Positions 56,592 through 63,927 of a stretch of 64,000 bases of DNA are shown here, one piece after another (within the stretch, counting starts at the first letter, position 1; the number at the start of each line of letters is the position of its first letter). The notes under the pieces are model-generated. The model did not search any database. It was given only the letters and a program-made list of their open reading frames with translations, and had not been told where the DNA came from. Source of the stretch: Minisyncoccota bacterium. Its GTDB lineage: Bacteria; Patescibacteriota; Minisyncoccia; Phycocordibacterales; Phycocordibacteraceae. Position numbers and translations under genes: made by a program. Location of the stretch: the NCBI GenBank assembly GCA_022842945.1, contig JALHOO010000001.1, forward strand, positions 157,830 through 221,829, given 5' to 3'.

Positions 56592-56796
56592 AATGAGAAA
56601 AGGCCGCTTGGGGAGCGACCTTGTTCGAGTGTGCGATATGCAACCTGCCCACGGCAGGATCTCTGCGACGGACCTTCCAAGGGGTTTGTTCCCTTGTGAA
56701 GCGGCGATTTGCATAAAGCTCTTTATGGGTAGGCACGAAGGTACTCTGTACAGTGAGGATAATCCTCAGGATAGGGTTGATGAAGCGGTGCCGGGG

Positions 56797-57387
56797 TCAG
56801 TTCCGCTTGGTCTGCGGCTGGCCCGTTGCCGGGGGAGCCGCGGCGGCTGCAGCTGCGGCCGGGGCGGCGGCGGGGCGGGCATCGATGCGCGCCTGGAGGC
56901 CTTCAACGAGGGTGTTGGACGTCTCCCAGCGTGCGTAGGACTGGGTCCATTTCCTCTGGAGTGCGACCTTCTCGTCGGAAAGTCTGTCGACTTCGCGTGC
57001 GAGTTCTGAACGCGTGACCTCCGCGGCCGCGAGCTCGGTTGCGACGGGATCCCTGAGGGCCGCCTTGCAGATGCTCCAGTAGGTGTCGCCCTTCTGGAAG
57101 GTGACGGTCGGAAGACCGCACACGTCCTTCCGGGTCTCGCCGACCTGGATGGCGCGGGCTTCCCGTTCCGTGTCGCCGTTGGCGATGCGGGCCTTGCGGG
57201 CAGCGTCGGCGATCATGGGGTCGGTGACGGCCACGATCGGGGCAGGCACGACAGGCGCAGGACGAGCAGCCGGGGCTGCAGTTTCCTGCACCGGGGCAGT
57301 CTGTTCGGCGATCGCTTGATCCTGGCCTTTGCAGGCGGGAACCAAAAGAGCGAGGCACAAGCCTGCCAACACGATAATCTTTTTCAT
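56797..57387 (-). CDS. LysM-domain lipoprotein with Ala/Pro-rich linkers
   Basis: Signal peptide ending LVPAC (lipobox-like), a LysM core VTFQKGDTYWSICKAAL, and a C-terminal AAAPAAAAAAAAPPATG tract encoded by a GC-rich GCN run. Confidence 0.6.
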   Translation of the reverse strand: MKKIIVLAGLCLALLVPACKGQDQAIAEQTAPVQETAAPAARPAPVVPAPIVAVTDPMIADAARKARIANGDTEREARAIQVGETRKDVCGLPTVTFQKGDTYWSICKAALRDPVATELAAAEVTRSELAREVDRLSDEKVALQRKWTQSYARWETSNTLVEGLQARIDARPAAAPAAAAAAAAPPATGQPQTKRN

Positions 57388-57534
57388 CTTCGTATCCTTC
57401 TTTCAATACTTGTTGCTGTTCAGGCAGAGACCGGGGCGCGAAGCCAAACGGTCTGTATCTACCTGGGAAACTCCATTTACAACATTAGCACAAAGTACTC
57501 TAATGTCAAGGAAGGTGTACTGCTACCCATACAG

Positions 57535-58303: not shown

Positions 58304-58909
58304 ATGATCGTCCTAGATGTTGAGACTACTGGCCTCATCCCACACAAGCATTCCATTCTTTCTCTTGGTGCACTCGACCTGAACGACCCCACGAATCAGT
58401 TCTATGAGGAGTGTCAGGTGTGGGAAGGAGCAGGTGTTGACGAAGATGCGCTGCGTATCAATGGCTTTTCCAAAGAGGAAGTAACAGGACAGGGGAGTAT
58501 GAAGCAGACCGAGGCGGAACTTATAACGGCCTTCGTCGCCTGGGCCACAGACCGCCCTCAAGACCGAACGCTTGCCGCACAGAACCCGTCGTTTGATTTG
58601 GAGTTTGTGCAGGCAGCGTGCGCACGTGCGGGAATAGACTGTCCGTTTGCAAAGCGCACCATAGACGTGCATACGGTTGCGTGGGTGCATATGGTTGAGC
58701 ATGGTGTGGAGCCTCCAACCAAGAACGGACACTCAGCCATTAATCTCGATACTGCACTTAAATACTGCGGTGTGCCCGAGGAACCCAAACCACACAATGC
58801 GCTCATGGGCGCTATGTGTCATGCCGAGGTTATCTCGCGCATAGCGTATACTAAGAAATTATTGCCCGACTTTAGCTCTTTCGATATTCCATGGGAGACG
58901 AACCGATAA
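58304..58909 (+). CDS. DEDD-family 3'-5' exonuclease (DnaQ-like)
   Basis: MIVLDVETTGL Exo I motif; the downstream Exo II/III acidic residues are plausible. Confidence 0.7.
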   Translation: MIVLDVETTGLIPHKHSILSLGALDLNDPTNQFYEECQVWEGAGVDEDALRINGFSKEEVTGQGSMKQTEAELITAFVAWATDRPQDRTLAAQNPSFDLEFVQAACARAGIDCPFAKRTIDVHTVAWVHMVEHGVEPPTKNGHSAINLDTALKYCGVPEEPKPHNALMGAMCHAEVISRIAYTKKLLPDFSSFDIPWETNR

Positions 58910-59682
58910 TCACCACGCCAACGATGAGCCTCTACGCCCCTGACGAAGGGGAGACAAAAGAGGTGCGTAATCGCGAGATGGGTAACGTGCTTACTCGTGC
59001 CATTGAGGAAGGGAAGCACGAGGTACCCACAAACCCAGCACCCCTCGTATGTAAGCCGCAACAGCTTGAGAGCTGGAGAGTGTTTAAGATCATGGCGGAG
59101 TTCGTAGACGGCTTTGATCTCCTAAAGAAGTACGGTCTTGCCGCTACCTTCTTTGGAAGTGTTCGTCTTACCCCTGAGGACCGGTACTACCAAGAGGCGG
59201 TAGAGCTCGCAGGTGTCCTCGCCAAGGAAGGCTACGCGGTTATAACGGGAGGCTCAGCAGGCATTATGGAGGCAGGAAATAAGGGAGCACATGATGCAGG
59301 AGGCTCTTCGGTTGGTCTTAATATCCGTCTTGAAGATAAGCAGGCCAACAACGCCTACCTTACCGACTACTTCACCTTCGATCACTTCTTTGTGCGCAAG
59401 GTTATGCTTACGTTCTCCTCAGAGGTATACGTGTACTTCCCAGGAGGCTTCGGTACGCTCGACGAGTTCACGGAAATTCTCACACTGGTGCAGACGAAGA
59501 AGATTAAGCCAGTGCCCATAGTGCTGTACGGCTCTGAGTTCTGGAATCCGTTCGTAGAGCTCTTCCGGAACCATCTTCTTGTAAAGTACGAGACTATTAG
59601 CGAAGAGGATCTCGCACTGTTCGTGGTTGTAGACTCGGTTGATGAAGCCGCGGCGTACATTAAGAAGACCGTAGTCTGCTAA
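58891..59682 (+). CDS. LOG family protein (TIGR00730 Rossmann fold, cytokinin riboside 5'-monophosphate phosphoribohydrolase-like)
   Basis: VFGSVRL, GGSAGIMEAGNKGA and PGGFGTLDEF motifs. Confidence 0.75.
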   Translation: MGDEPIITTPTMSLYAPDEGETKEVRNREMGNVLTRAIEEGKHEVPTNPAPLVCKPQQLESWRVFKIMAEFVDGFDLLKKYGLAATFFGSVRLTPEDRYYQEAVELAGVLAKEGYAVITGGSAGIMEAGNKGAHDAGGSSVGLNIRLEDKQANNAYLTDYFTFDHFFVRKVMLTFSSEVYVYFPGGFGTLDEFTEILTLVQTKKIKPVPIVLYGSEFWNPFVELFRNHLLVKYETISEEDLALFVVVDSVDEAAAYIKKTVVC

Positions 59683-59690
59683 TTAAGGAT

Positions 59691-59849
59691 ATGGGACTCG
59701 ACTACAGCCAGAAGCGTCTCATCTCTAAAGCGCTCCATAACAAGAAGCATGACGCGCGGAGCGAGCGCTTACGGAAGTACGCCTTCCTCACAGGCGTCAT
59801 GGGTATGCTCGTCTCTCTCGTGCACCTGATCGTGGTTGTGTTGAAGTGA
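59691..59849 (+). CDS. Micro-protein (52 aa), basic N-terminus plus C-terminal TM helix; paralogue of the next ORF
   Basis: MGLDYSQKRLISKALHNKKHDARSERLRKYAFLTGVMGMLVSLVHLIVVVLK. It is not on the ORF track because it is under 60 aa. Confidence 0.45.
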   Translation: MGLDYSQKRLISKALHNKKHDARSERLRKYAFLTGVMGMLVSLVHLIVVVLK

Positions 59850-59888
59850 GTCGTGATATTCTACTTCCATACGAGACCTATATAGCCT

Positions 59889-60023
59889 ATGCCACGACAC
59901 AAGACTAAGAAGCATGCGACACATAAGCCCAAGTTAGGTCTTGAGGTCTATGCATTCTGGACGGGGTTTGCGAGTACTCTTATAAGTCTTCTCCATGTGC
60001 TTATCGTCGCAACGAAAGGATAG
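59889..60023 (+). CDS. Micro-protein (44 aa), paralogue of 59691-59849
   Basis: MPRHKTKKHATHKPKLGLEVYAFWTGFASTLISLLHVLIVATKG shares the KKH...YAF.TG...L(V/I)SL.H(L/V)(I/L)V pattern. Its stop lies 2 nt before the next ATG. Confidence 0.45.
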   Translation: MPRHKTKKHATHKPKLGLEVYAFWTGFASTLISLLHVLIVATKG

Positions 60024-60231: not shown

Positions 60232-60366
60232 ATGAATACTCCTAAGAAGAAAGTAGTAAAGCCTGAGCCTGGCTATCGGGGAGGGAAGGGAGGTATGAAT
60301 GGCTTTTCGGATAAGGGTGTGAAGAAGCCCGTGCGTGCGACCTACTACGGAAAGAAGGCGCGGTAG
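60232..60366 (+). CDS. Micro-protein (44 aa), Lys/Gly-rich, KGG-like
   Basis: MNTPKKKVVKPEPGYRGGKGGMNGFSDKGVKKPVRATYYGKKAR, translationally coupled to the upstream ORF. Confidence 0.4.
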   Translation: MNTPKKKVVKPEPGYRGGKGGMNGFSDKGVKKPVRATYYGKKAR

Positions 60367-60421
60367 GAAATATGAAGGAGTCTGGACTTTTCGGGGGAAA
60401 AGGATAGGATTCATTTCGGTT

Positions 60422-60516
60422 CGGCGAGATGGCAGAGTGGCTTAATGTTACGGCCCTCGATGGCCGTAGGGGAAGCTCAGACTTCTCTCGCAGGTTCGAA
60501 TCCTGCTCTTGCCGCC
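60422..60516 (+). tRNA. tRNA-Ser (class II, long variable arm; anticodon probably CGA)
   Basis: Acceptor GGCGAGA/TCTTGCC, G73 discriminator, encoded CCA, T-loop GGTTCGAATCC. My hand fold gives an atypical 8-nt anticodon loop. Confidence 0.7.
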
Positions 60517-60542
60517 AACCGTTCTTTAGGCATGATTGATAG

Positions 60543-60617
60543 GGGTGGGTAGCTCAGCGGTAGAGCGCTGGCACTCTGTGTCAGAGGTCGCGGGTTCGAA
60601 TCTCGCCTCTCCCTCCA
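60543..60617 (+). tRNA. tRNA-Arg (anticodon TCT by hand fold)
   Basis: 75 nt with encoded CCA and T-loop GGTTCGAATCT. The anticodon stem CTGGC/GTCAG has a loop ACTCTGT, with C at position 33 (unusual). Confidence 0.6.
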
Positions 60618-60712
60618 ATTATCCTTCACCGTACTGTCCCGGGGAAGCTCCACGCTTGGACTCTCGCCACGTTGGCTTGAGGATTGCAAGGTCGTACCTT
60701 GCCCCCGGTGCC

Positions 60713-60740
60713 CACCGTCTCGTTGAGGCGGTTTTTGTTT
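60713..60740. terminator. Terminator after the tRNA pair
   Basis: ccgtctc-gtt-gaggcgg followed by tttttgttt. Confidence 0.55.
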
Positions 60741-60804
60741 AACTAGAGAAATAAAGTAGAAAAAGGCCGGGGAGTGTTTCCACTCATGATACCGTGCTAC
60801 CTTT

Positions 60805-61230
60805 ATGTTCATGAAGAAACTCAAGCCCTTGATCAAAGCAATTGGAGAGAATTGGTTCAGAATAACTATTCTATTATTGGTTTTGTTGGTCATAGTGATG
60901 GTAAACGGGTACTTGCAAGAACAGAATAGGCTGGCGCGCGAGGCTGCCACTCTTAAGCAAGAAAAAGAAGACAAGGAGTTCGATGCTCAACAGAAAGAGG
61001 CTTGTCTGGCAATCTATAAGCAAGAATCATCGAAGTGGAATAACGTGAATGGGTGGAGATACGCTGATGATCAAGATACTTGTTACGTGGAGTACAGGCT
61101 CAATCCAAGCGAGAAGAAGACTGGGGCAGAGTGTGACGCACTCTACAAGGGAGACGACGGAATTGTGCTATTCGGTTTGATAGATAGCTGGCTTAATTGC
61201 AAGGATGGAGTATTTGAAAACTCATTCTAG
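60805..61230 (+). CDS. Small secreted/membrane-anchored Cys-containing protein (island gene)
   Basis: 141 aa with an N-terminal TM and 4 Cys; markedly lower GC than the upstream genes. Confidence 0.5.
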   Translation: MFMKKLKPLIKAIGENWFRITILLLVLLVIVMVNGYLQEQNRLAREAATLKQEKEDKEFDAQQKEACLAIYKQESSKWNNVNGWRYADDQDTCYVEYRLNPSEKKTGAECDALYKGDDGIVLFGLIDSWLNCKDGVFENSF

Positions 61231-61242
61231 CTAAGAAAACAA

Positions 61243-61277
61243 GAAAGAGACCTCATGAGAGGTCTCTTTCTTTTTAT
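61243..61277. terminator. Intrinsic terminator
   Basis: aagaaagagacctc-atga-gaggtctctttcttttt. Confidence 0.7.
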
Positions 61278-61486
61278 CCTAAACTTAACCATTTCCCCAG
61301 GAGCCAAAAGTGATTTGGGGATAGAGGTCACTTCAGCGGTAACTGGCGCCAGTTAGCTTTACTAAAGAAACTATCTATACCAACAGTCACTCGAGGCGAT
61401 CTCTTAATGGGGAATAAGGTTTCGGAAGGCAACCTAAGACGTACGGGTAGGAATCGAACCAGAAGTACTTTCGTGGCTTTGTAAGA

Positions 61487-61520
61487 CATACTTGGTACAA
61501 TATACGCAGTACATCTAGAG
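61487..61520 (+). repeat. Direct repeat copy A (GTACAATATA...GCAGTACATCTAG)
   Basis: catacTTgGTACAATATAcgcaGTACAtCTAGag, similar to copy B at 62826-62866. Confidence 0.5.
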
Positions 61521-61669
61521 ACACAGAAAGTGGGCCAGGATTAGGAGCAAACGAGAATAGTTCCCTTGGATCTCGATTCACTGAGGAAAGGTATGTGGTG
61601 TAGTCACAAACCCTAGATTCACAGGTGGGTCTGTGGAGGACAAAAAGGGGAGTGTGGTAGGGTAGGTAG

Positions 61670-62386
61670 ATGGCAAAGGTAAGTAATTTTATATTTGTTG
61701 ATGAGGCGGGTGATCCTGGGGCACCGTATTCGATCGGGAATGACGGTGTAAAAATCTCTACGGGTGCGAGCCCTTTTTATATTATTGCCGCATTGTGCGT
61801 AGACGAACGCCAACTTCATTTGATGGAGGACAGGATAATGGCTGTGAAAAGCGCTTTCGGGTATACAAAGGAAATTAAGAGTAACGAAATTTCGCTGCCC
61901 CTCTACAGAGCTCTTCTAGAGATAGTTAATGAACTTGGTGTAAAGATTTATTACTGTCTAGTTGATAAGGCTAATTATCAAGGACAATTTAAAGTCGACG
62001 GAATTCGTGAGCTACACAACGTATTTGACGAGTACCATCTTGTTAAGGCAGTTACTTGCGCTGTTGTCGATGGAGACTTAAGAGATGTAGAAGTTGTAAT
62101 AGATAGAACCGATAGACGCCTTCTCGATGGAAAATTTGAAGCTTTTGATAATTATTTAATTCGGAAGGTCAAAAAGTATTTTGGCGATAAAGATTTTGGG
62201 AGAATAAACCACATCACTCATGTGAATTCTCAGTATGTTAATGCAATGCAAATGTCAGATATTGTGGGGGGAGCAATACGAGATAATTTCACAGGAAAGA
62301 ATACGGATCTCATCGCGGTTCTCTCAGAGGAGCTTCTTATAAAAGCTACCGGTAAAAGGTATAAACCTCTTACAATTGAGATATAA
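61670..62386 (+). CDS. DUF3800-like protein
   Basis: N-terminal FIFVDEAGDPG matches the DUF3800 DESG-type start; the AT-rich codon usage differs from the core genes. Confidence 0.55.
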   Translation: MAKVSNFIFVDEAGDPGAPYSIGNDGVKISTGASPFYIIAALCVDERQLHLMEDRIMAVKSAFGYTKEIKSNEISLPLYRALLEIVNELGVKIYYCLVDKANYQGQFKVDGIRELHNVFDEYHLVKAVTCAVVDGDLRDVEVVIDRTDRRLLDGKFEAFDNYLIRKVKKYFGDKDFGRINHITHVNSQYVNAMQMSDIVGGAIRDNFTGKNTDLIAVLSEELLIKATGKRYKPLTIEI

Positions 62387-62613
62387 AAAGAAAAGGGGGC
62401 GCCCACACCTGGGACACCCTTTTCATTGGTTAGTATACACAAGTAAAGTGTAGGGTCAATGAATATAACGATTTCGTGGCCTAAAATAAGGCTAGAATTG
62501 TCCACATAGCATATTCTGTGTGCATAGTATGCAGGCACGCGTGCGAGAGTCGGCTGGCTGCTCATACTTAGGAAGGGAAGGCTAGATTCGTAGGTAAATC
62601 TATAGTCCCTAAA

Positions 62614-62654
62614 ACCACTTCCCCGAACCCAATTTTTGGGTTTTTGGGGAAGTG
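62614..62654. repeat. Long near-perfect inverted repeat (18-bp arms, 5-nt loop) in an 850-bp non-coding stretch
   Basis: ccacttccccgaacccaa-ttttt-gggtttttggggaagtgg. Confidence 0.6.
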
Positions 62655-62825
62655 GTCACTAATGGCAAATAAGCGCACGGATAAAATTTAGTAGCCACTG
62701 GAAGTTGGAAGAATTATTTTGCCGTCCTTCGTAAAGGGAAGTAGGGGTACAAAAGTGTGCACTAGGTGACATAGATCTGATTCAAAGAATTTAGCCCAGA
62801 AGAGGGGCTCAGGGCTTTCTTATAT

Positions 62826-62866
62826 ATACTTCGTACAATATATCTTTTGCGTAGTACAATCTAGCA
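62826..62866 (+). repeat. Direct repeat copy B
   Basis: atacTTcGTACAATATAtcttttGCGTAGTACAatCTAGc, with 17 of 18 identities in the core plus a shared GTACA..TCTAG tail. Confidence 0.5.
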
Positions 62867-63189
62867 AATAGCTGGGCCGTATTCTATTCAGCCCGCATTT
62901 CTTTCTATACATCTTCTCTCTGTGCGAGCCTCTATACTGCCCTGTGAGCTCTCTGAATATTCGGAGTGATACATCCTATGACTCTGCATTCACCTCTGCG
63001 CGCGCCTACAAAAGATTCTCCACACCACTCCCCCGATTTCTTTAAACCGAGACAGGGGAGTCGTTGTTCAGAGCAGGATACTTTTAGTAGGTGCACTTCC
63101 CTCTCTAGGAAAATAATTTACTTAGGGAAGTGTCCAATGGTTTGGAAGCTTTCAGTTGAGAGACTCTGTATCGTAGTAAAAGGTATGAA

Positions 63190-63222
63190 GAAAGCGCGGA
63201 CGATATGTATCGTCCGCGCTTT
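63190..63222. terminator. Terminator for the minus-strand zinc-ribbon gene
   Basis: aaagcgcggacgata-tgt-atcgtccgcgcttt. Confidence 0.6.
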
Positions 63223-63235
63223 CAGTCATGAAGGT

Positions 63236-63787
63236 CTACTTCTTCTTTGCAGCCTTCTTCGCAACCTTCTTTGGTGCTGCTTTCGCAACTACCTTCTTCT
63301 CAGCCTTAACGGGCTTCTCAGAGCGCTCTGTAGAAGCGGTGAGGATAGAAGAGTACGCTGCGCTCTCAAGGCTCTGGATGAGCGTATCGAGTTTTGCATG
63401 TACAACCGTGAGCTCGCGCTGCATAGCACCAATACGGGGGTCCTCAACTGCTGTCTGGGATGCTGGAGCAAATGAGCGCTCGGAACGCTCAGGACGATCA
63501 GAGTAGCTACGCTTCTCGTACGAGTTGCCGTAGCTGTTTCCTCCTCCGCGAGAGTCGCGTGGAGCCTCGTCACGAACGAAGCAGTTTTTGCAGAATACAG
63601 GCTTCTTGCCGTTTGGGCGGAATGGTACCTCGCAGGCTGCGTGACACTTGCTGCAGCTGGTCTTAAAGGTCTCTGAAGCACCACGAGAGTCCCTATCAAA
63701 GGACTTGCGGGGTCCGCCAAAGCTTGGACGGCTGAAGCTTCCTCCACGGGCGCCAGAAGGCTTAAAGTTTTTCTTGAAATCGTTCAT
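63236..63787 (-). CDS. Zinc-ribbon protein with Arg/Ser/Gly-rich middle and Lys/Ala-rich (histone H1-like) C-terminal tail
   Basis: CSKCHAACEVPFRPNGKKPVFCKNCF (CxxC-x13-CxxC), RS/RG-rich low complexity, and a C-terminal KKVVAKAAPKKVAKKAAKKK. Confidence 0.55.
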   Translation of the reverse strand: MNDFKKNFKPSGARGGSFSRPSFGGPRKSFDRDSRGASETFKTSCSKCHAACEVPFRPNGKKPVFCKNCFVRDEAPRDSRGGGNSYGNSYEKRSYSDRPERSERSFAPASQTAVEDPRIGAMQRELTVVHAKLDTLIQSLESAAYSSILTASTERSEKPVKAEKKVVAKAAPKKVAKKAAKKK

Positions 63788-63927
63788 GCGAGATAGTTAT
63801 TGGGTGATTGGTTTGATTATATCATACGATTATGAAAAATCAATCTATGAGCTCTACATACCCTCCTTTTCGACAAATGGCAAATTCTGTGCAATTCTGC
63901 GCTATAGAAACCTTGGGAGCAAGAAAT

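What the first reader, a model, noticed from the sequence alone, without database searches (positions are those of the whole stretch)
60422..63800. Low-GC island downstream of tRNA-Ser/tRNA-Arg: DUF3800-like gene flanked by about 38-bp direct repeats, plus 850 bp of non-coding DNA with a long inverted repeat
Immediately after the tRNA-Ser/tRNA-Arg pair and its terminator, base composition drops sharply. The region holds a small Cys-containing exported protein (60805-61230) and a DUF3800-like gene (61670-62386).

The DUF3800-like gene is bracketed by two imperfect direct repeats:
- Copy A, 61487-61520: ATACTTgGTACAATATA..GCAGTACATCTAG
- Copy B, 62826-62866: ATACTTcGTACAATATA..GCGTAGTACAATCTAG

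Downstream lies about 850 bp with no ORF of 60 aa or more. It contains an 18-bp-arm inverted repeat at 62614-62654. The island ends with a minus-strand zinc-ribbon protein carrying a lysine-rich tail. Taken together, tRNA-adjacent position, compositional shift, flanking direct repeats and a DUF gene point to a horizontally acquired cassette, possibly a defence or addiction module. DUF3800 has no established function. The long non-coding stretch may hide an ncRNA or decayed genes.
Basis: seen in the sequence. Interest (0 to 1): 0.7.

Follow-up and report, generated by a model that had tools for sequence, protein, structure and literature searches.

The report
DUF3800 cassette inserted at chromosome dif site
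The "direct repeats" are the chromosome's dimer-resolution site (dif) at the replication terminus and a dead duplicate of it, and they bracket a small acquired cassette holding an RNase H-like DUF3800 gene and a tiny conserved antisense hairpin RNA.

Summary
The features are real, but the tRNA-island reading is mostly wrong. The window is a Patescibacteria chromosome. Copy B (62828-62855) is a 28-bp, 11-6-11 site. It occurs once, in the same place and orientation, in 36 related genomes, and is 20/28 identical to Bacillus subtilis dif. The most strand-skewed 7-mer, AGGGAAG, points at this site from both sides regardless of gene strand, and GC skew changes sign there. One relative encodes a Xer-type recombinase 20 bp away. 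I read it as dif at the replication terminus.

The inverted repeat is a conserved hairpin made of two opposed copies of the polar motif, and it is native. Copy A is the core of a decayed, collinear duplicate of the whole dif region (about 270 bp). Its site has lost 7 bp.

Between the two copies lies a low-GC insertion absent from 19 relatives. It holds a DUF3800 gene (RNase HII/HIII-like fold) and a convergent hairpin sRNA of about 40 nt with its own promoter and terminator. This RNA accompanies every homologue examined and shows compensatory changes. No Rfam family matches it.

Integration of a small circle at dif, probably by Xer, is inferred. A defence or addiction role is plausible but untested.

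The parts
60423..60617 (+). Two tRNA genes: a Ser-like tRNA (CGA) with an irregular 6-nt anticodon loop, and tRNA-Arg(TCT). They are context only. They are absent from this position in relatives and are not an attachment site for the cassette.
   Evidence: ARAGORN. Rfam tRNA, 41.9 and 51.6 bits. No tRNA at the syntenic locus of 13 relatives.
60805..61230 (+). p141, a small membrane-anchored protein with four Cys. It is a lineage-specific gene in a variable slot between the conserved terminator/GGCCGGGGAGTGTTTCCACTC block and the dif region.
   Evidence: ORF. No tblastn match in relatives. No Pfam family above cut-off. Relatives carry other small membrane ORFs in this slot.
61241..61272 (.). 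Bidirectional terminator hairpin after p141.
   Evidence: Terminator scan on both strands, 14-bp stem. Inverted repeat I1.
61278..61542 (+). Unit A, a decayed duplicate of the whole dif region. It holds a degenerate left hairpin (about 61290-61335), a dead site (61490-61510: ACTTGGTACAA-TATA-[7 bp missing]-CGCAGT) and about 30 nt of right flank.
   Evidence: Collinear local alignment to 62608-62883, score 67 vs 26.4 +/- 3.5 for shuffles, z 13.9. About 59% identity.
61670..62386 (+). DUF3800 gene (238 aa), predicted to have a type-2 RNase H-like fold. The DE motif (D11, E12) and QxxD motif (Q194, D197) are invariant.
62385..62459 (-). Convergent small RNA gene. It has a promoter (TTGACC-16-TATACT, 62459->62432), a hairpin (62424->62390) and a U-tract. 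The predicted transcript is about 40 nt, antisense to the 3' end of the DUF3800 mRNA.
   Evidence: Promoter and minus-strand terminator scans. Fold of -18.8 kcal/mol. Covariance model hit of 73.1 bits at 62376-62431, minus strand. Present beside the homologue in all 20 loci modelled. Covariation. Promoter in 19 of 20 loci.
62574..62660 (+). Left accessory block of the dif region. It holds a polar-motif copy (AGGGAAG at 62574) and a conserved hairpin (62614-62656) made of two opposed copies of GGGGAAGTGG.
   Evidence: Inverted repeat I10. Fold z -5.1. Conserved in L003, L004, L005, L007, L008, L014 and L035 at the same distance from the site.
62828..62855 (+). Candidate chromosomal dif site: ACTTCGTACAA-TATATC-TTTTGCGTAGT (11-bp arm, 6-bp centre, 11-bp arm).
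   Evidence: Once per locus, same orientation, in 36 Patescibacteria loci. 20/28 identical to B. subtilis dif (sequences from PMC3025954). AGGGAAG polarity converges on it. GC skew changes sign there. A Xer-type recombinase ends 20 bp from the site in L029. It does not fold as RNA (z -0.2).
62856..62885 (+). Right flank conserved among the closest relatives (..CTGGGCCGTATTCT) and also copied into unit A.
   Evidence: Alignment A1. blastn, 84-95% identity. Alignment to unit A.
63093..63133 (+). Right-hand hairpin of two opposed polar-motif copies (CACTTCCC ... GGGAAGTG). Relatives keep a toward-dif copy at +190 to +240.
   Evidence: Motif positions. Fold of -16.6 kcal/mol, z -1.9.
63190..63223 (.). 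Perfect 16-bp palindrome, the terminator of the native zinc-ribbon gene (63236-63787, minus).
   Evidence: Inverted repeat I4, 100% complementary. The zinc-ribbon protein is syntenic in L008, 68% identity.

Best explanation
This is the replication terminus of a Patescibacteria chromosome.

The dif site. The 28-bp site at 62828-62855 is the chromosome's dif site, where a Xer tyrosine recombinase resolves chromosome dimers. A purine-rich polar motif, AGGGAAG, points toward it on both chromosome arms, as FtsK-orienting KOPS/SRS motifs do. Extra conserved copies flank the site closely. The "long inverted repeat" consists of two opposed copies of this motif.

The insertion. A small piece of foreign DNA of about 1.34 kb, counting one copy of the dif region, sits beside dif. 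It lies between a dead copy of the dif region of about 270 bp (unit A, 7 bp missing from the site) and the live copy (unit B). This is the footprint of a small circle that carried a dif-region copy and integrated by one crossover at dif. The host Xer system most likely did this, as with IMEX elements and dif modules. The insertion then became fixed because one of the two sites can no longer recombine.

The cargo. It is a two-part module found in unrelated places in many Patescibacteria. One part is a DUF3800 protein with an RNase HII/HIII-like fold and intact acidic motifs. The other is a convergent hairpin RNA of about 40 nt, made from its own strong promoter and ending in its own terminator. 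The bases in its loop and internal loop do not vary. The likeliest working model is that the RNA is a specific ligand or regulator of the nuclease, comparable to an RNA antitoxin, so that the pair acts as a defence or addiction module.

Status of each step. Shown: conservation and uniqueness of the site, convergence of the polar motif, the duplication, absence of the cassette from relatives, the protein fold, and conservation, covariation and strand of the RNA. Inferred: Xer catalysis, the circular intermediate, the protein-RNA interaction, and any defence or toxin role.
For: dif site:
- One copy per locus, in syntenic position and the same orientation, in 36 related genomes, and none in non-Patescibacteria loci.
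- 11-6-11 architecture, 20/28 identical to B. subtilis dif. B. subtilis and E. coli dif share 19/28.
- In an unbiased scan, AGGGAAG is the most strand-skewed 7-mer in the window's left arm (18:1) and in relatives' left arms (62:3). After reverse-complementing, it is also the most skewed in relatives' right arms (40:1).
- This polarity does not follow gene strand. It flips at the site in the more distant L090 as well.
- GC skew is positive to the left of the site in all 14 informative loci and lower to the right in 13 (negative in 10).
- A Phage_integrase/SAM-like recombinase ends 20 bp from the site in L029.

Duplication: (score 67 vs 26 +/- 3.5). It is unique to the window among 19 genomes.

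Insertion: p141 and DUF3800 are absent from all relatives. The gene has low GC.

Cargo:
- The RNA lies next to every homologue examined.
- The covariance model scores 45-73 bits on the antisense strand and 17 bits or less on the sense strand. It finds nothing above noise in the 13 relatives lacking DUF3800 that were searched.
- 95% of cells are paired, against 88% in shuffles. Seven pairs show changes on both sides (0 of 500 shuffles reach this).
- The U-G pairs are valid only on the minus strand.
- 19 of 20 loci have a promoter match of at least 9/12. In 15 of them it ends 4-8 nt before the hairpin.

Precedents:
- An IMEX flanked by an intact and a modified dif site, the modification stabilising it (PMC9765430).
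- KOPS motif variants (PMC3384302).
- RNA motifs near DUF3800 genes (PMC5737381).
Against: - No Xer recombinase or FtsK gene is seen in the 64-kb window. Only 1.1 kb lies to the right of the site in the window, so the skew switch rests on relatives.
- The inner palindrome criterion of Kono et al. (more than 4 of 6 pairs between positions 7-12 and 17-22) is met by only 3-4 pairs (my count on the sequence; criterion).
- Unit A is only about 59% identical to unit B, less than unit B is to its orthologues. It looks like a complete dif region with a deletion, not a clean hybrid site. A RecA-dependent or other duplication route cannot be excluded.
- Other cargo next to dif in relatives (RT fusion, zeta toxin) has no pseudo-dif.
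- Most DUF3800-plus-RNA modules are not near a recognisable dif. In L090 the module lies on the other side of dif, in the other orientation, with no duplicate.
- There is no experimental or transcript evidence for the sRNA, and nothing shows the protein is toxic or protective.
Confidence: 0.6

Rival explanations
1. Classical tRNA-targeted genomic island. An integrase-mediated insertion next to tRNA-Ser/tRNA-Arg, with the 38-bp repeats as attL and attR.
For: The cassette follows two tRNA genes and has low GC. Relatives lack it.
Against: - Copy B and the inverted repeat are conserved, in the same order, in relatives that have neither the tRNAs nor the cassette.
- There is no integrase in the region.
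- No tRNA 3' fragment is repeated downstream.
- The repeats lie 0.9 and 2.2 kb from the tRNAs, and p141 lies outside them.
Confidence: 0.03
2. The 28-bp element is not dif. It would be a conserved promoter/operator or part of a non-coding RNA that happens to lie near the terminus, and copy A would be a duplicated regulatory region driving DUF3800.
For: - Conservation extends beyond 28 bp: a GGGGC..TTTGATA-like block to the left and CTGGGCCGTATTCT to the right.
- The arms co-vary between genomes, as an RNA stem would.
- Copy A lies about 160 bp upstream of DUF3800.
Against: - The promoter scan finds nothing at 62800-62870 on either strand.
- The element does not fold better than shuffles (-4.3 kcal/mol, z -0.2).
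- Sequence downstream is not conserved beyond about 30 nt.
- No Rfam family matches.
- This reading does not explain why the genome's most polar 7-mer switches orientation exactly here, nor the dif-like 11-6-11 layout.
Confidence: 0.08
3. The site is dif, but Xer played no part in the insertion. The duplication would come from RecA-dependent Campbell integration of a circle carrying homologous terminus DNA, or from a segmental duplication into which the DUF3800 module later landed.
For: - The duplicated segment is about 270 bp, much longer than a Xer core. It includes both flanks.
- Unit A looks like a complete copy with a later 7-bp deletion.
- Other genes next to dif in relatives have no pseudo-dif.
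- DUF3800 modules occur at many non-dif places.
Against: - Both routes give the same product, so nothing here argues directly against this rival.
- Xer is the recombination activity known to act at dif, and known IMEXs leave one intact and one altered dif.
- The module has landed beside dif in two genomes, the window and L090.
Confidence: 0.25
4. The conserved hairpin after DUF3800 is only a bidirectional transcription terminator. The "sRNA" would have no function of its own, and DUF3800 would act alone.
For: The hairpin is called terminator-like and sits 4-70 nt after the stop codon. Both strands fold about equally well.
Against: - Ordinary terminators do not keep loop and internal-loop bases invariant while the adjacent protein falls to 46-65% identity.
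- A near-consensus promoter is kept in fixed register on the antisense strand in 15-19 of 20 loci.
- The U-G pairs and the longer U-tract fit only the minus strand.
Confidence: 0.1

Closest known systems
dif/Xer chromosome dimer resolution sites with FtsK-orienting polar motifs (E. coli dif and KOPS GGGNAGGG; B. subtilis dif and SRS GAGAAGGG; L. lactis difSL/XerS and GAAGAAG)
   Same: A 28-bp site of 11-6-11 layout with partly palindromic arms. One copy, at the point where GC skew and a purine-rich polar 7-mer switch orientation. 20/28 identical to B. subtilis dif. In one relative (L029) the recombinase gene lies next to the site, as I recall for xerS/difSL and xerH/difH.
   Different: The outer arms are more palindromic and the inner arms less so than in classical dif (ACAA...TTTT instead of ATAA...TTAT). 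The polar motif is AGGGAAG. A conserved hairpin of two opposed motif copies sits 170-215 bp to the left of the site, and I know of no counterpart. I found nothing on dif in Patescibacteria in the paper library.
IMEX elements (CTX-phi and TLC-phi of Vibrio, the gonococcal genetic island, Legionella LME-1) and Acinetobacter dif modules
   Same: Foreign DNA without its own integrase, sitting at dif between an intact and a defective dif copy. In LME-1 the altered copy stabilises the insertion (PMC9765430).
   Different: It is far smaller: one gene plus one sRNA, about 1.3 kb. The duplicated segment is about 270 bp of the dif region rather than a site mimic of 22-28 bp. The dead copy is a deletion derivative. 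No circular form or second occurrence with the same junctions has been seen.
DUF3800-associated RNA motifs DUF3800-I to -XI (Weinberg et al. 2017, PMC5737381; Rfam RF02969, RF02968 and others)
   Same: A conserved structured RNA next to a DUF3800 gene, ending in an intrinsic terminator, on the opposite strand to the gene. Its function is unknown.
   Different: It matches none of the Rfam models, even at E up to 10 in a 281-nt search. It is much smaller (one hairpin of 14 pairs, about 40 nt). It is defined by a promoter in fixed register and overlaps the 3' end of the gene's mRNA.
Type I toxin-antitoxin pairs with 3'-overlapping convergent antisense RNA (B. subtilis txpA/RatA, bsrG/SR4; from my own knowledge) and type III pairs (ToxIN)
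   Same: A protein gene is paired with a constitutively promoted small RNA that is complementary to the 3' end of its mRNA. The pair occurs in mobile, low-GC contexts.
   Different: The protein is a 238-aa RNase H-like enzyme, not a small membrane peptide. The RNA sequence is invariant beyond what antisense pairing requires, which points to protein recognition. No toxicity has been shown.
Retron type VII and CRISPR-associated DUF3800 proteins (Mestre 2020, PMC7736814; Altae-Tran 2023, PMC10910872)
   Same: The same Pfam domain, with the DE motif and a predicted RNase H2-like fold. It is linked to defence systems and non-coding RNAs.
   Different: There is no reverse transcriptase, CRISPR array or TPR domain here. 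The protein stands alone and keeps the QxxD motif, which the retron-linked clade lacks.

Membership tests
dif (Xer recombination site) | 28-bp site: two 11-bp recombinase-binding arms around a 6-bp centre, with arms partly palindromic | tested here: met
   ACTTCGTACAA-TATATC-TTTTGCGTAGT. 10 of 14 symmetric positions are complementary about the centre. 20/28 identical to B. subtilis dif (reference sequences).
dif (Xer recombination site) | Inner palindrome criterion of Kono et al. 2011: more than 4 of 6 complementary pairs between positions 7-12 and 17-22 | tested here: not met
   3 pairs in the window's site (plus one G-T), and 4 in relatives with GCACAA..TTTTGC. This is my count on the sequences; the criterion is. 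Symmetry lies more in the outer arms.
dif (Xer recombination site) | Single copy at the replication terminus (GC-skew switch) | tested here: met
   One full site in 64 kb and one per 20-kb locus in 36 genomes. GC skew is positive to the left of the site in all 14 informative loci and lower to the right in 13 (negative in 10). Whole-genome position could not be checked.
dif (Xer recombination site) | Polar FtsK-orienting (KOPS-like) motifs converge on it | tested here: met
   AGGGAAG is the top-ranked skewed 7-mer on both arms with opposite polarity (18:1, 62:3, 40:1). This is independent of gene strand. The flip lies within 250 bp of the site.
dif (Xer recombination site) | A cognate Xer tyrosine recombinase, and recombination at the site | not testable with these tools
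   None is encoded in the window. L029 has a Phage_integrase (E 4e-41) with a SAM-like domain ending 20 bp from its site. Activity needs experiments.
IMEX / dif module | Insertion at dif, flanked by dif and a dif-like copy in direct orientation, with no integrase of its own | tested here: met
   Units A and B flank 61543-62607. The only cargo is DUF3800 and the sRNA.
IMEX / dif module | Crossover within the site core, and an excisable or circular form that moves between genomes | tested here: inconclusive
   Unit A is a full copy with a deletion, not a recognisable hybrid. No other genome has the same junctions. L090 has the module beside dif in a different geometry. Read-level data are not available.
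DUF3800 (PF12686) | Profile match above the curated cut-off | tested here: met
   37.4 bits against a cut-off of 21, covering profile positions 1-147 of 149.
DUF3800 (PF12686) | N-terminal DE motif and C-terminal QxxD motif | tested here: met
   D11, E12, Q194 and D197 are invariant in 35 sequences. The motifs are described in PMC7736814.
DUF3800 (PF12686) | RNase H2-like fold | tested here: met
Rfam DUF3800-I to -XI RNA motifs | Match to one of the curated covariance models | tested here: not met
   No DUF3800 motif was reported at the gathering threshold, at E up to 5 over 3 kb, or at E up to 10 over 281 nt.
Rfam DUF3800-I to -XI RNA motifs | Conserved structured RNA consistently adjacent to DUF3800 genes | tested here: met
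   All 20 loci modelled have it. Covariation is supported.
Toxin-antitoxin (type I or III-like) | Toxic protein neutralised by a cognate small RNA | not testable with these tools
   Only the gene arrangement (convergent, 3'-overlapping sRNA) is seen.
tRNA-targeted genomic island | Integrase gene and a direct repeat of the tRNA 3' end at the far border | tested here: not met
   No recombinase. No tRNA-derived repeat downstream.
PADLOC candidate system PDC-M04 | Component A together with its partner gene(s) | tested here: inconclusive
   There is a component A hit, E 1.6e-8. p141 and the zinc-ribbon protein match no PADLOC model. I did not establish the composition of the candidate system.

The most novel reading that the evidence does not exclude
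DUF3800-plus-hairpin-RNA modules could be a previously unrecognised class of minimal, self-contained defence or addiction cassettes in Patescibacteria. The invariant 40-nt RNA would hold an RNase H2-like nuclease in check. At least some of these cassettes would move as tiny circles of about 1.3 kb that carry a copy of the host dif region and ride the Xer machinery into the terminus. That would make them the smallest IMEX-type elements known. It would also give a simple handle on the function of DUF3800-associated RNAs, which has been open since they were described in 2017.
Probability: 0.15. Interest if true: 0.75.

Novelty: new variant of a known kind. Interest (0 to 1): 0.5.

Why it matters
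- It gives a concrete candidate dif site and a KOPS-like polar motif (AGGGAAG) for a lineage of ultra-small Patescibacteria. I found nothing published on chromosome dimer resolution in this group. The site is a handy marker for the terminus in fragmented MAGs.
- It shows how a terminus can pass for a genomic island: low GC, long non-coding DNA, repeats and hairpins.
- It adds a very small DUF3800-associated RNA that is bounded by its own promoter and terminator. Eleven unrelated RNA motifs are already known next to DUF3800 genes, and none has a known role. A 40-nt hairpin beside a 238-aa stand-alone RNase H-like protein is about the simplest pair on which to test what these RNAs do.
- If Xer did capture the cassette, defence-type genes can enter even the smallest bacterial genomes through the dimer-resolution site.

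Tried and rejected
- Known RNA families. Rfam at the gathering threshold on the whole window, and at permissive E-values on 60300-63300, 62340-62620 and L005:11440-12260, gave only tRNAs and noise.
- RNase P, tmRNA, SRP and 6S RNA. I considered these for the conserved blocks at 62570-62890 and rejected them by eye for lack of their universal motifs. This is not a formal test.
- The 28-bp site as an RNA hairpin: fold z -0.2.
- A promoter at copy A or copy B: none was called.
- A tyrosine recombinase in the window: a regex on all ORFs of 150 aa or more, and tblastn with the L029 recombinase, found nothing.
- dif-like sites near other DUF3800 homologues (L083-L089, L091-L108, L157-L163): none, apart from L090.
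- Pseudo-dif copies next to other cargo in 18 relatives: none, apart from a 45-nt piece in L020.
- A viral-contig scan with the hairpin core: 48 hits, of which 47 were chance matches lacking the stem context and one was a real instance, L122.
- Source of unit A: it is not closer to any relative's dif region than to unit B.
- Closest DUF3800 homologue (P0002, 78% identity): its contig DNA could not be fetched.
- Supplements of Weinberg 2017 are not held, so I could not compare the hairpin with the drawn motifs.
- p141: no informative family in Pfam, NCBIfam, PADLOC or PHROGs.

Full report
**1. What is in the sequence**

The described features are present.
- GC drops from about 0.53-0.55 to 0.38-0.44 after 60800. 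The DUF3800 gene is 0.393, against 0.528 for the whole window.
- ORFs 60805-61230 (141 aa) and 61670-62386 (238 aa) exist. The second matches Pfam DUF3800 above its cut-off (E 5e-9) and a PADLOC defence-candidate model (PDC-M04A, E 1.6e-8).
- The direct repeats are real: 61475-61504 and 62813-62842 are 83% identical without gaps. The inverted repeat has arms of 14 nt at 93% and folds at -30.1 kcal/mol, z -5.1.
- The minus-strand gene 63236-63787 encodes a CxxC-x17-CxxC zinc-ribbon protein.
- ARAGORN finds tRNA-Arg(TCT) and, before it, a Ser-like tRNA with an irregular anticodon loop.

**2. Relatives change the picture**

A scan with the neighbouring LOG-family protein (58891-59682) returned syntenic loci from Patescibacteria MAGs at 55-86% protein identity.
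- The closer relatives keep the LOG gene followed by some or all of the four small ORFs that follow it in the window. None has the tRNAs, p141 or DUF3800 there.
- Copy B and the inverted repeat are nevertheless conserved in them, at up to 95-97% DNA identity. That is higher than the surrounding genes.
- In L005 the inverted repeat begins only about 240 bp after the last small ORF.
- So copy B and the hairpin are native, and the insertion lies to their left.

**3. Copy B is a dif-like site at the replication terminus**

- The core is ACTTCGTACAA-TATATC-TTTTGCGTAGT (62828-62855): two near-palindromic 11-bp arms around a 6-bp centre.
- Its centre, ACAATATATCTTT, occurs exactly once, in the same orientation downstream of LOG, in 36 Patescibacteria loci. 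The non-Patescibacteria loci have no such site, only three weak core matches without the CG arms.
- It is 20/28 identical to the experimentally defined B. subtilis dif. B. subtilis and E. coli dif share 19/28 (sequences from Kono et al. 2011).
- GC skew is positive to the left of the site in all 14 informative loci and lower to the right in 13, negative in 10. Genes to the right are mostly on the minus strand.
- The strongest evidence came from an unbiased search for strand-skewed 7-mers. AGGGAAG ranks first in the window's left arm (18 plus: 1 minus) and in the relatives' left arms (62:3). After reverse-complementing, it also ranks first in their right arms (40:1).
- This polarity does not follow gene orientation. 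In the window's left arm, 9 copies lie in plus-strand genes, 6 in minus-strand genes and 3 between genes, and all are plus-oriented.
- The polarity flips within about 250 bp of the site. It does the same in the more distant L090.
- This is how FtsK/SpoIIIE-orienting motifs behave: KOPS GGGNAGGG, SRS GAGAAGGG and L. lactis GAAGAAG (PMC3384302).
- In L029 a tyrosine recombinase (Phage_integrase, E 4e-41, with a SAM-like N-domain) ends 20 bp from the site.
- The site does not fold as RNA (z -0.2), and no promoter is called there.

Caveats: no Xer gene lies in the window. The window shows only 1.1 kb to the right of the site. The inner-palindrome rule of Kono et al. is met by only 3-4 of 6 pairs.

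**4. The inverted repeat**

- The hairpin at 62614-62656 consists of two opposed copies of the polar motif (ACCACTTCCCCG / CGGGGAAGTGGT).
- It sits 170-215 bp to the left of dif and is conserved at that distance in the close relatives.
- A similar hairpin lies to the right of dif at 63093-63133. Relatives keep at least a toward-dif copy at +190 to +240.
- Its function is unexplained.

**5. Copy A is the core of a dead duplicate of the whole dif region**

- 61278-61542 aligns collinearly with 62608-62883: degenerate hairpin, spacer, site and about 30 nt of right flank. The score is 67, against 26.4 +/- 3.5 for shuffles, z 13.9.
- The duplicated site has lost 7 bp (TCTTTTG), that is, part of the centre and the inner right arm. 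It should therefore be inactive.
- Among 19 genomes tested, only the window has such a duplicate.
- Unit A is about 59% identical to unit B and is not closer to any relative's dif region.
- The DNA between the two units (61543-62607, 1065 bp) is the DUF3800 cassette.
- A direct duplication of a recombination region around foreign DNA is what single-crossover integration of a circle carrying that region produces. Xer-exploiting elements leave one intact and one altered dif, and the altered copy stabilises the insertion (LME-1, PMC9765430).
- Xer catalysis is an inference here. RecA-dependent integration would give the same product.

**6. The cargo is a two-part module**

Protein:
- It has 137 homologues; the few that carry a source name are from Patescibacteria MAGs.
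- D11, E12, D120, D145, Q194 and D197 are invariant.

RNA:
- Right after the stop codon of every homologue examined lies a hairpin whose loop and internal-loop bases do not change, while the proteins fall to 46-65% identity and the contexts differ completely.
- On the opposite strand a near-consensus promoter fires into it. In the window this is TTGACC-16-TATACT at 62459->62432.
- 19 of 20 loci have a promoter match of at least 9/12. In 15 of them the -10 element ends 4-8 nt before the first paired base. A U-tract follows the hairpin on that strand.
- Thirteen distinct versions show compensatory changes: G-C / C-G / U-A at one pair, C-G / U-A at another, and A-U / G-C at two more. An invariant U-G pair and five wobbles are valid only on the minus strand.
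- A covariance model scores 45-73 bits on the antisense strand of each DUF3800 locus, against 17 bits or less on the sense strand. It finds nothing above noise in the 13 relatives lacking DUF3800 that were searched.
- On the clean alignment, 95% of cells pair (88% in shuffles) and 7 pairs change on both sides (0 of 500 shuffles reach this). All slid controls are lower.
- The product is predicted to be an RNA of about 40 nt, antisense to the 3' end of the DUF3800 mRNA.
- Weinberg et al. described eleven unrelated RNA motifs beside DUF3800 genes, function unknown. This hairpin matches none of the Rfam models.

**7. Mobility of the module**

- DUF3800 genes of this subfamily are 8-16 GC points below their loci in the window and 8 of 9 other loci.
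- They sit in unrelated neighbourhoods: next to restriction-modification and AAA genes (L083), HTH/Gp49 (L157), RhuM (L108), NYN (L158), and a terminase-bearing element (L089).
- In L090, syntenic with the window on the LOG side, the module lies about 680 bp from the same dif-like site. It is on the other side of the site, in the opposite orientation relative to it, and there is no duplicate.

**8. Verdict**

- The region is a replication terminus carrying a small acquired cassette, not a tRNA-targeted island.
- My confidence is about 0.85 that the site is dif, about 0.85 that the sRNA gene is real, about 0.4 that Xer made the insertion, and about 0.35 that the pair acts in defence or addiction.
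- The dif site and polar motif are expected features of any bacterium, though I found no description of them for this lineage. The hairpin RNA and the dif-bracketed one-gene cassette are new variants of known kinds.

Noticed in passing
window 60423-60517: The Ser-like tRNA (long variable arm, CGA anticodon) has an 18-nt anticodon arm instead of 17. ARAGORN draws a 6-nt loop and calls it tRNA-?(Arg|Ser). If the closing C-G pair opens, the loop is 8 nt. Two other public assemblies (L001, L002) are identical to the window over their overlaps; only L001 covers this tRNA.
   Followed up: partly
window 60618-60745: Between tRNA-Arg and the terminator, about 95 nt fold into a cloverleaf-like shape. 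It has an acceptor-like stem (CCGGGG/CCCCGG), three hairpins and a T-arm-like GCAAGG-UCGUA-CCUUGC, which is 61% similar to the real T-arms. ARAGORN and Rfam do not call it, and its fold z is only -2.0. It may be a decayed third tRNA.
   Followed up: partly
L005:11483-11625 (also L003, L006, L008): Where the window has the two tRNAs, the closest relatives have a non-coding block of about 140 nt that is 86-94% conserved (GGTGTTAGTATGCGGATTCCGGCCCC...), followed by the shared terminator and GGCCGGGAGTGTTTCCACTC. No Rfam family matches.
   Followed up: partly
whole window and all related loci: AGGGAAG is a strongly polar 7-mer (18:1 in 62 kb) whose orientation depends on the chromosome arm, not on gene strand. 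It is a candidate FtsK-orienting motif for this lineage and a practical way to orient MAG contigs.
   Followed up: yes
L029:11700-12668 (minus strand): A XerC/D-type tyrosine recombinase gene ends 20 bp from that genome's copy of the dif-like site. The arrangement recalls xerS/difSL. A LexA-like gene lies just to the right of the site there and in L005.
   Followed up: partly
L014:10997-12214 (minus strand): Beside dif in this relative is a 405-aa fusion of a reverse transcriptase (RVT_1, E 5e-17) with a DnaG-type CHC2 zinc finger (E 3e-26). Other relatives carry a zeta toxin (L010), a NUDIX-like ORF judged by eye, not searched (L025) or an HNH nuclease (L035) next to dif. The dif flanks are therefore a variable, defence-flavoured spot.
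   Followed up: partly
window 62230-62565 (minus strand): A 111-aa ORF, called as a gene in a public assembly (L001 3347-3682), overlaps the DUF3800 3' end and covers the whole sRNA gene. It is most likely spurious.
   Followed up: no
window 56600-57400: There is a sharp GC peak (0.62-0.69, against 0.52 around it), with AT skew down to -0.32. I did not examine it.
   Followed up: no
L088 vs L089: Two metagenome contigs share 3.9 kb at 97% identity, starting 138 nt upstream of an identical DUF3800 gene, but they differ completely further upstream. There DUF3800 and its RNA are the first genes of a larger shared element, which in L089 includes a ParB-methyltransferase and a terminase.
   Followed up: partly
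L159-L163: All five fetched contigs carrying DUF3800 homologue P0025 (from five samples) end 360-540 nt downstream of the gene. This suggests a repeat or a strain-variable junction there.
   Followed up: no
window 59691-60023: The two small ORFs after LOG (52 aa and 44 aa) are paralogues with a shared C-terminal hydrophobic segment (..LISLLHVLIV..). They are conserved in relatives, and tblastn with one hits the other.
   Followed up: no
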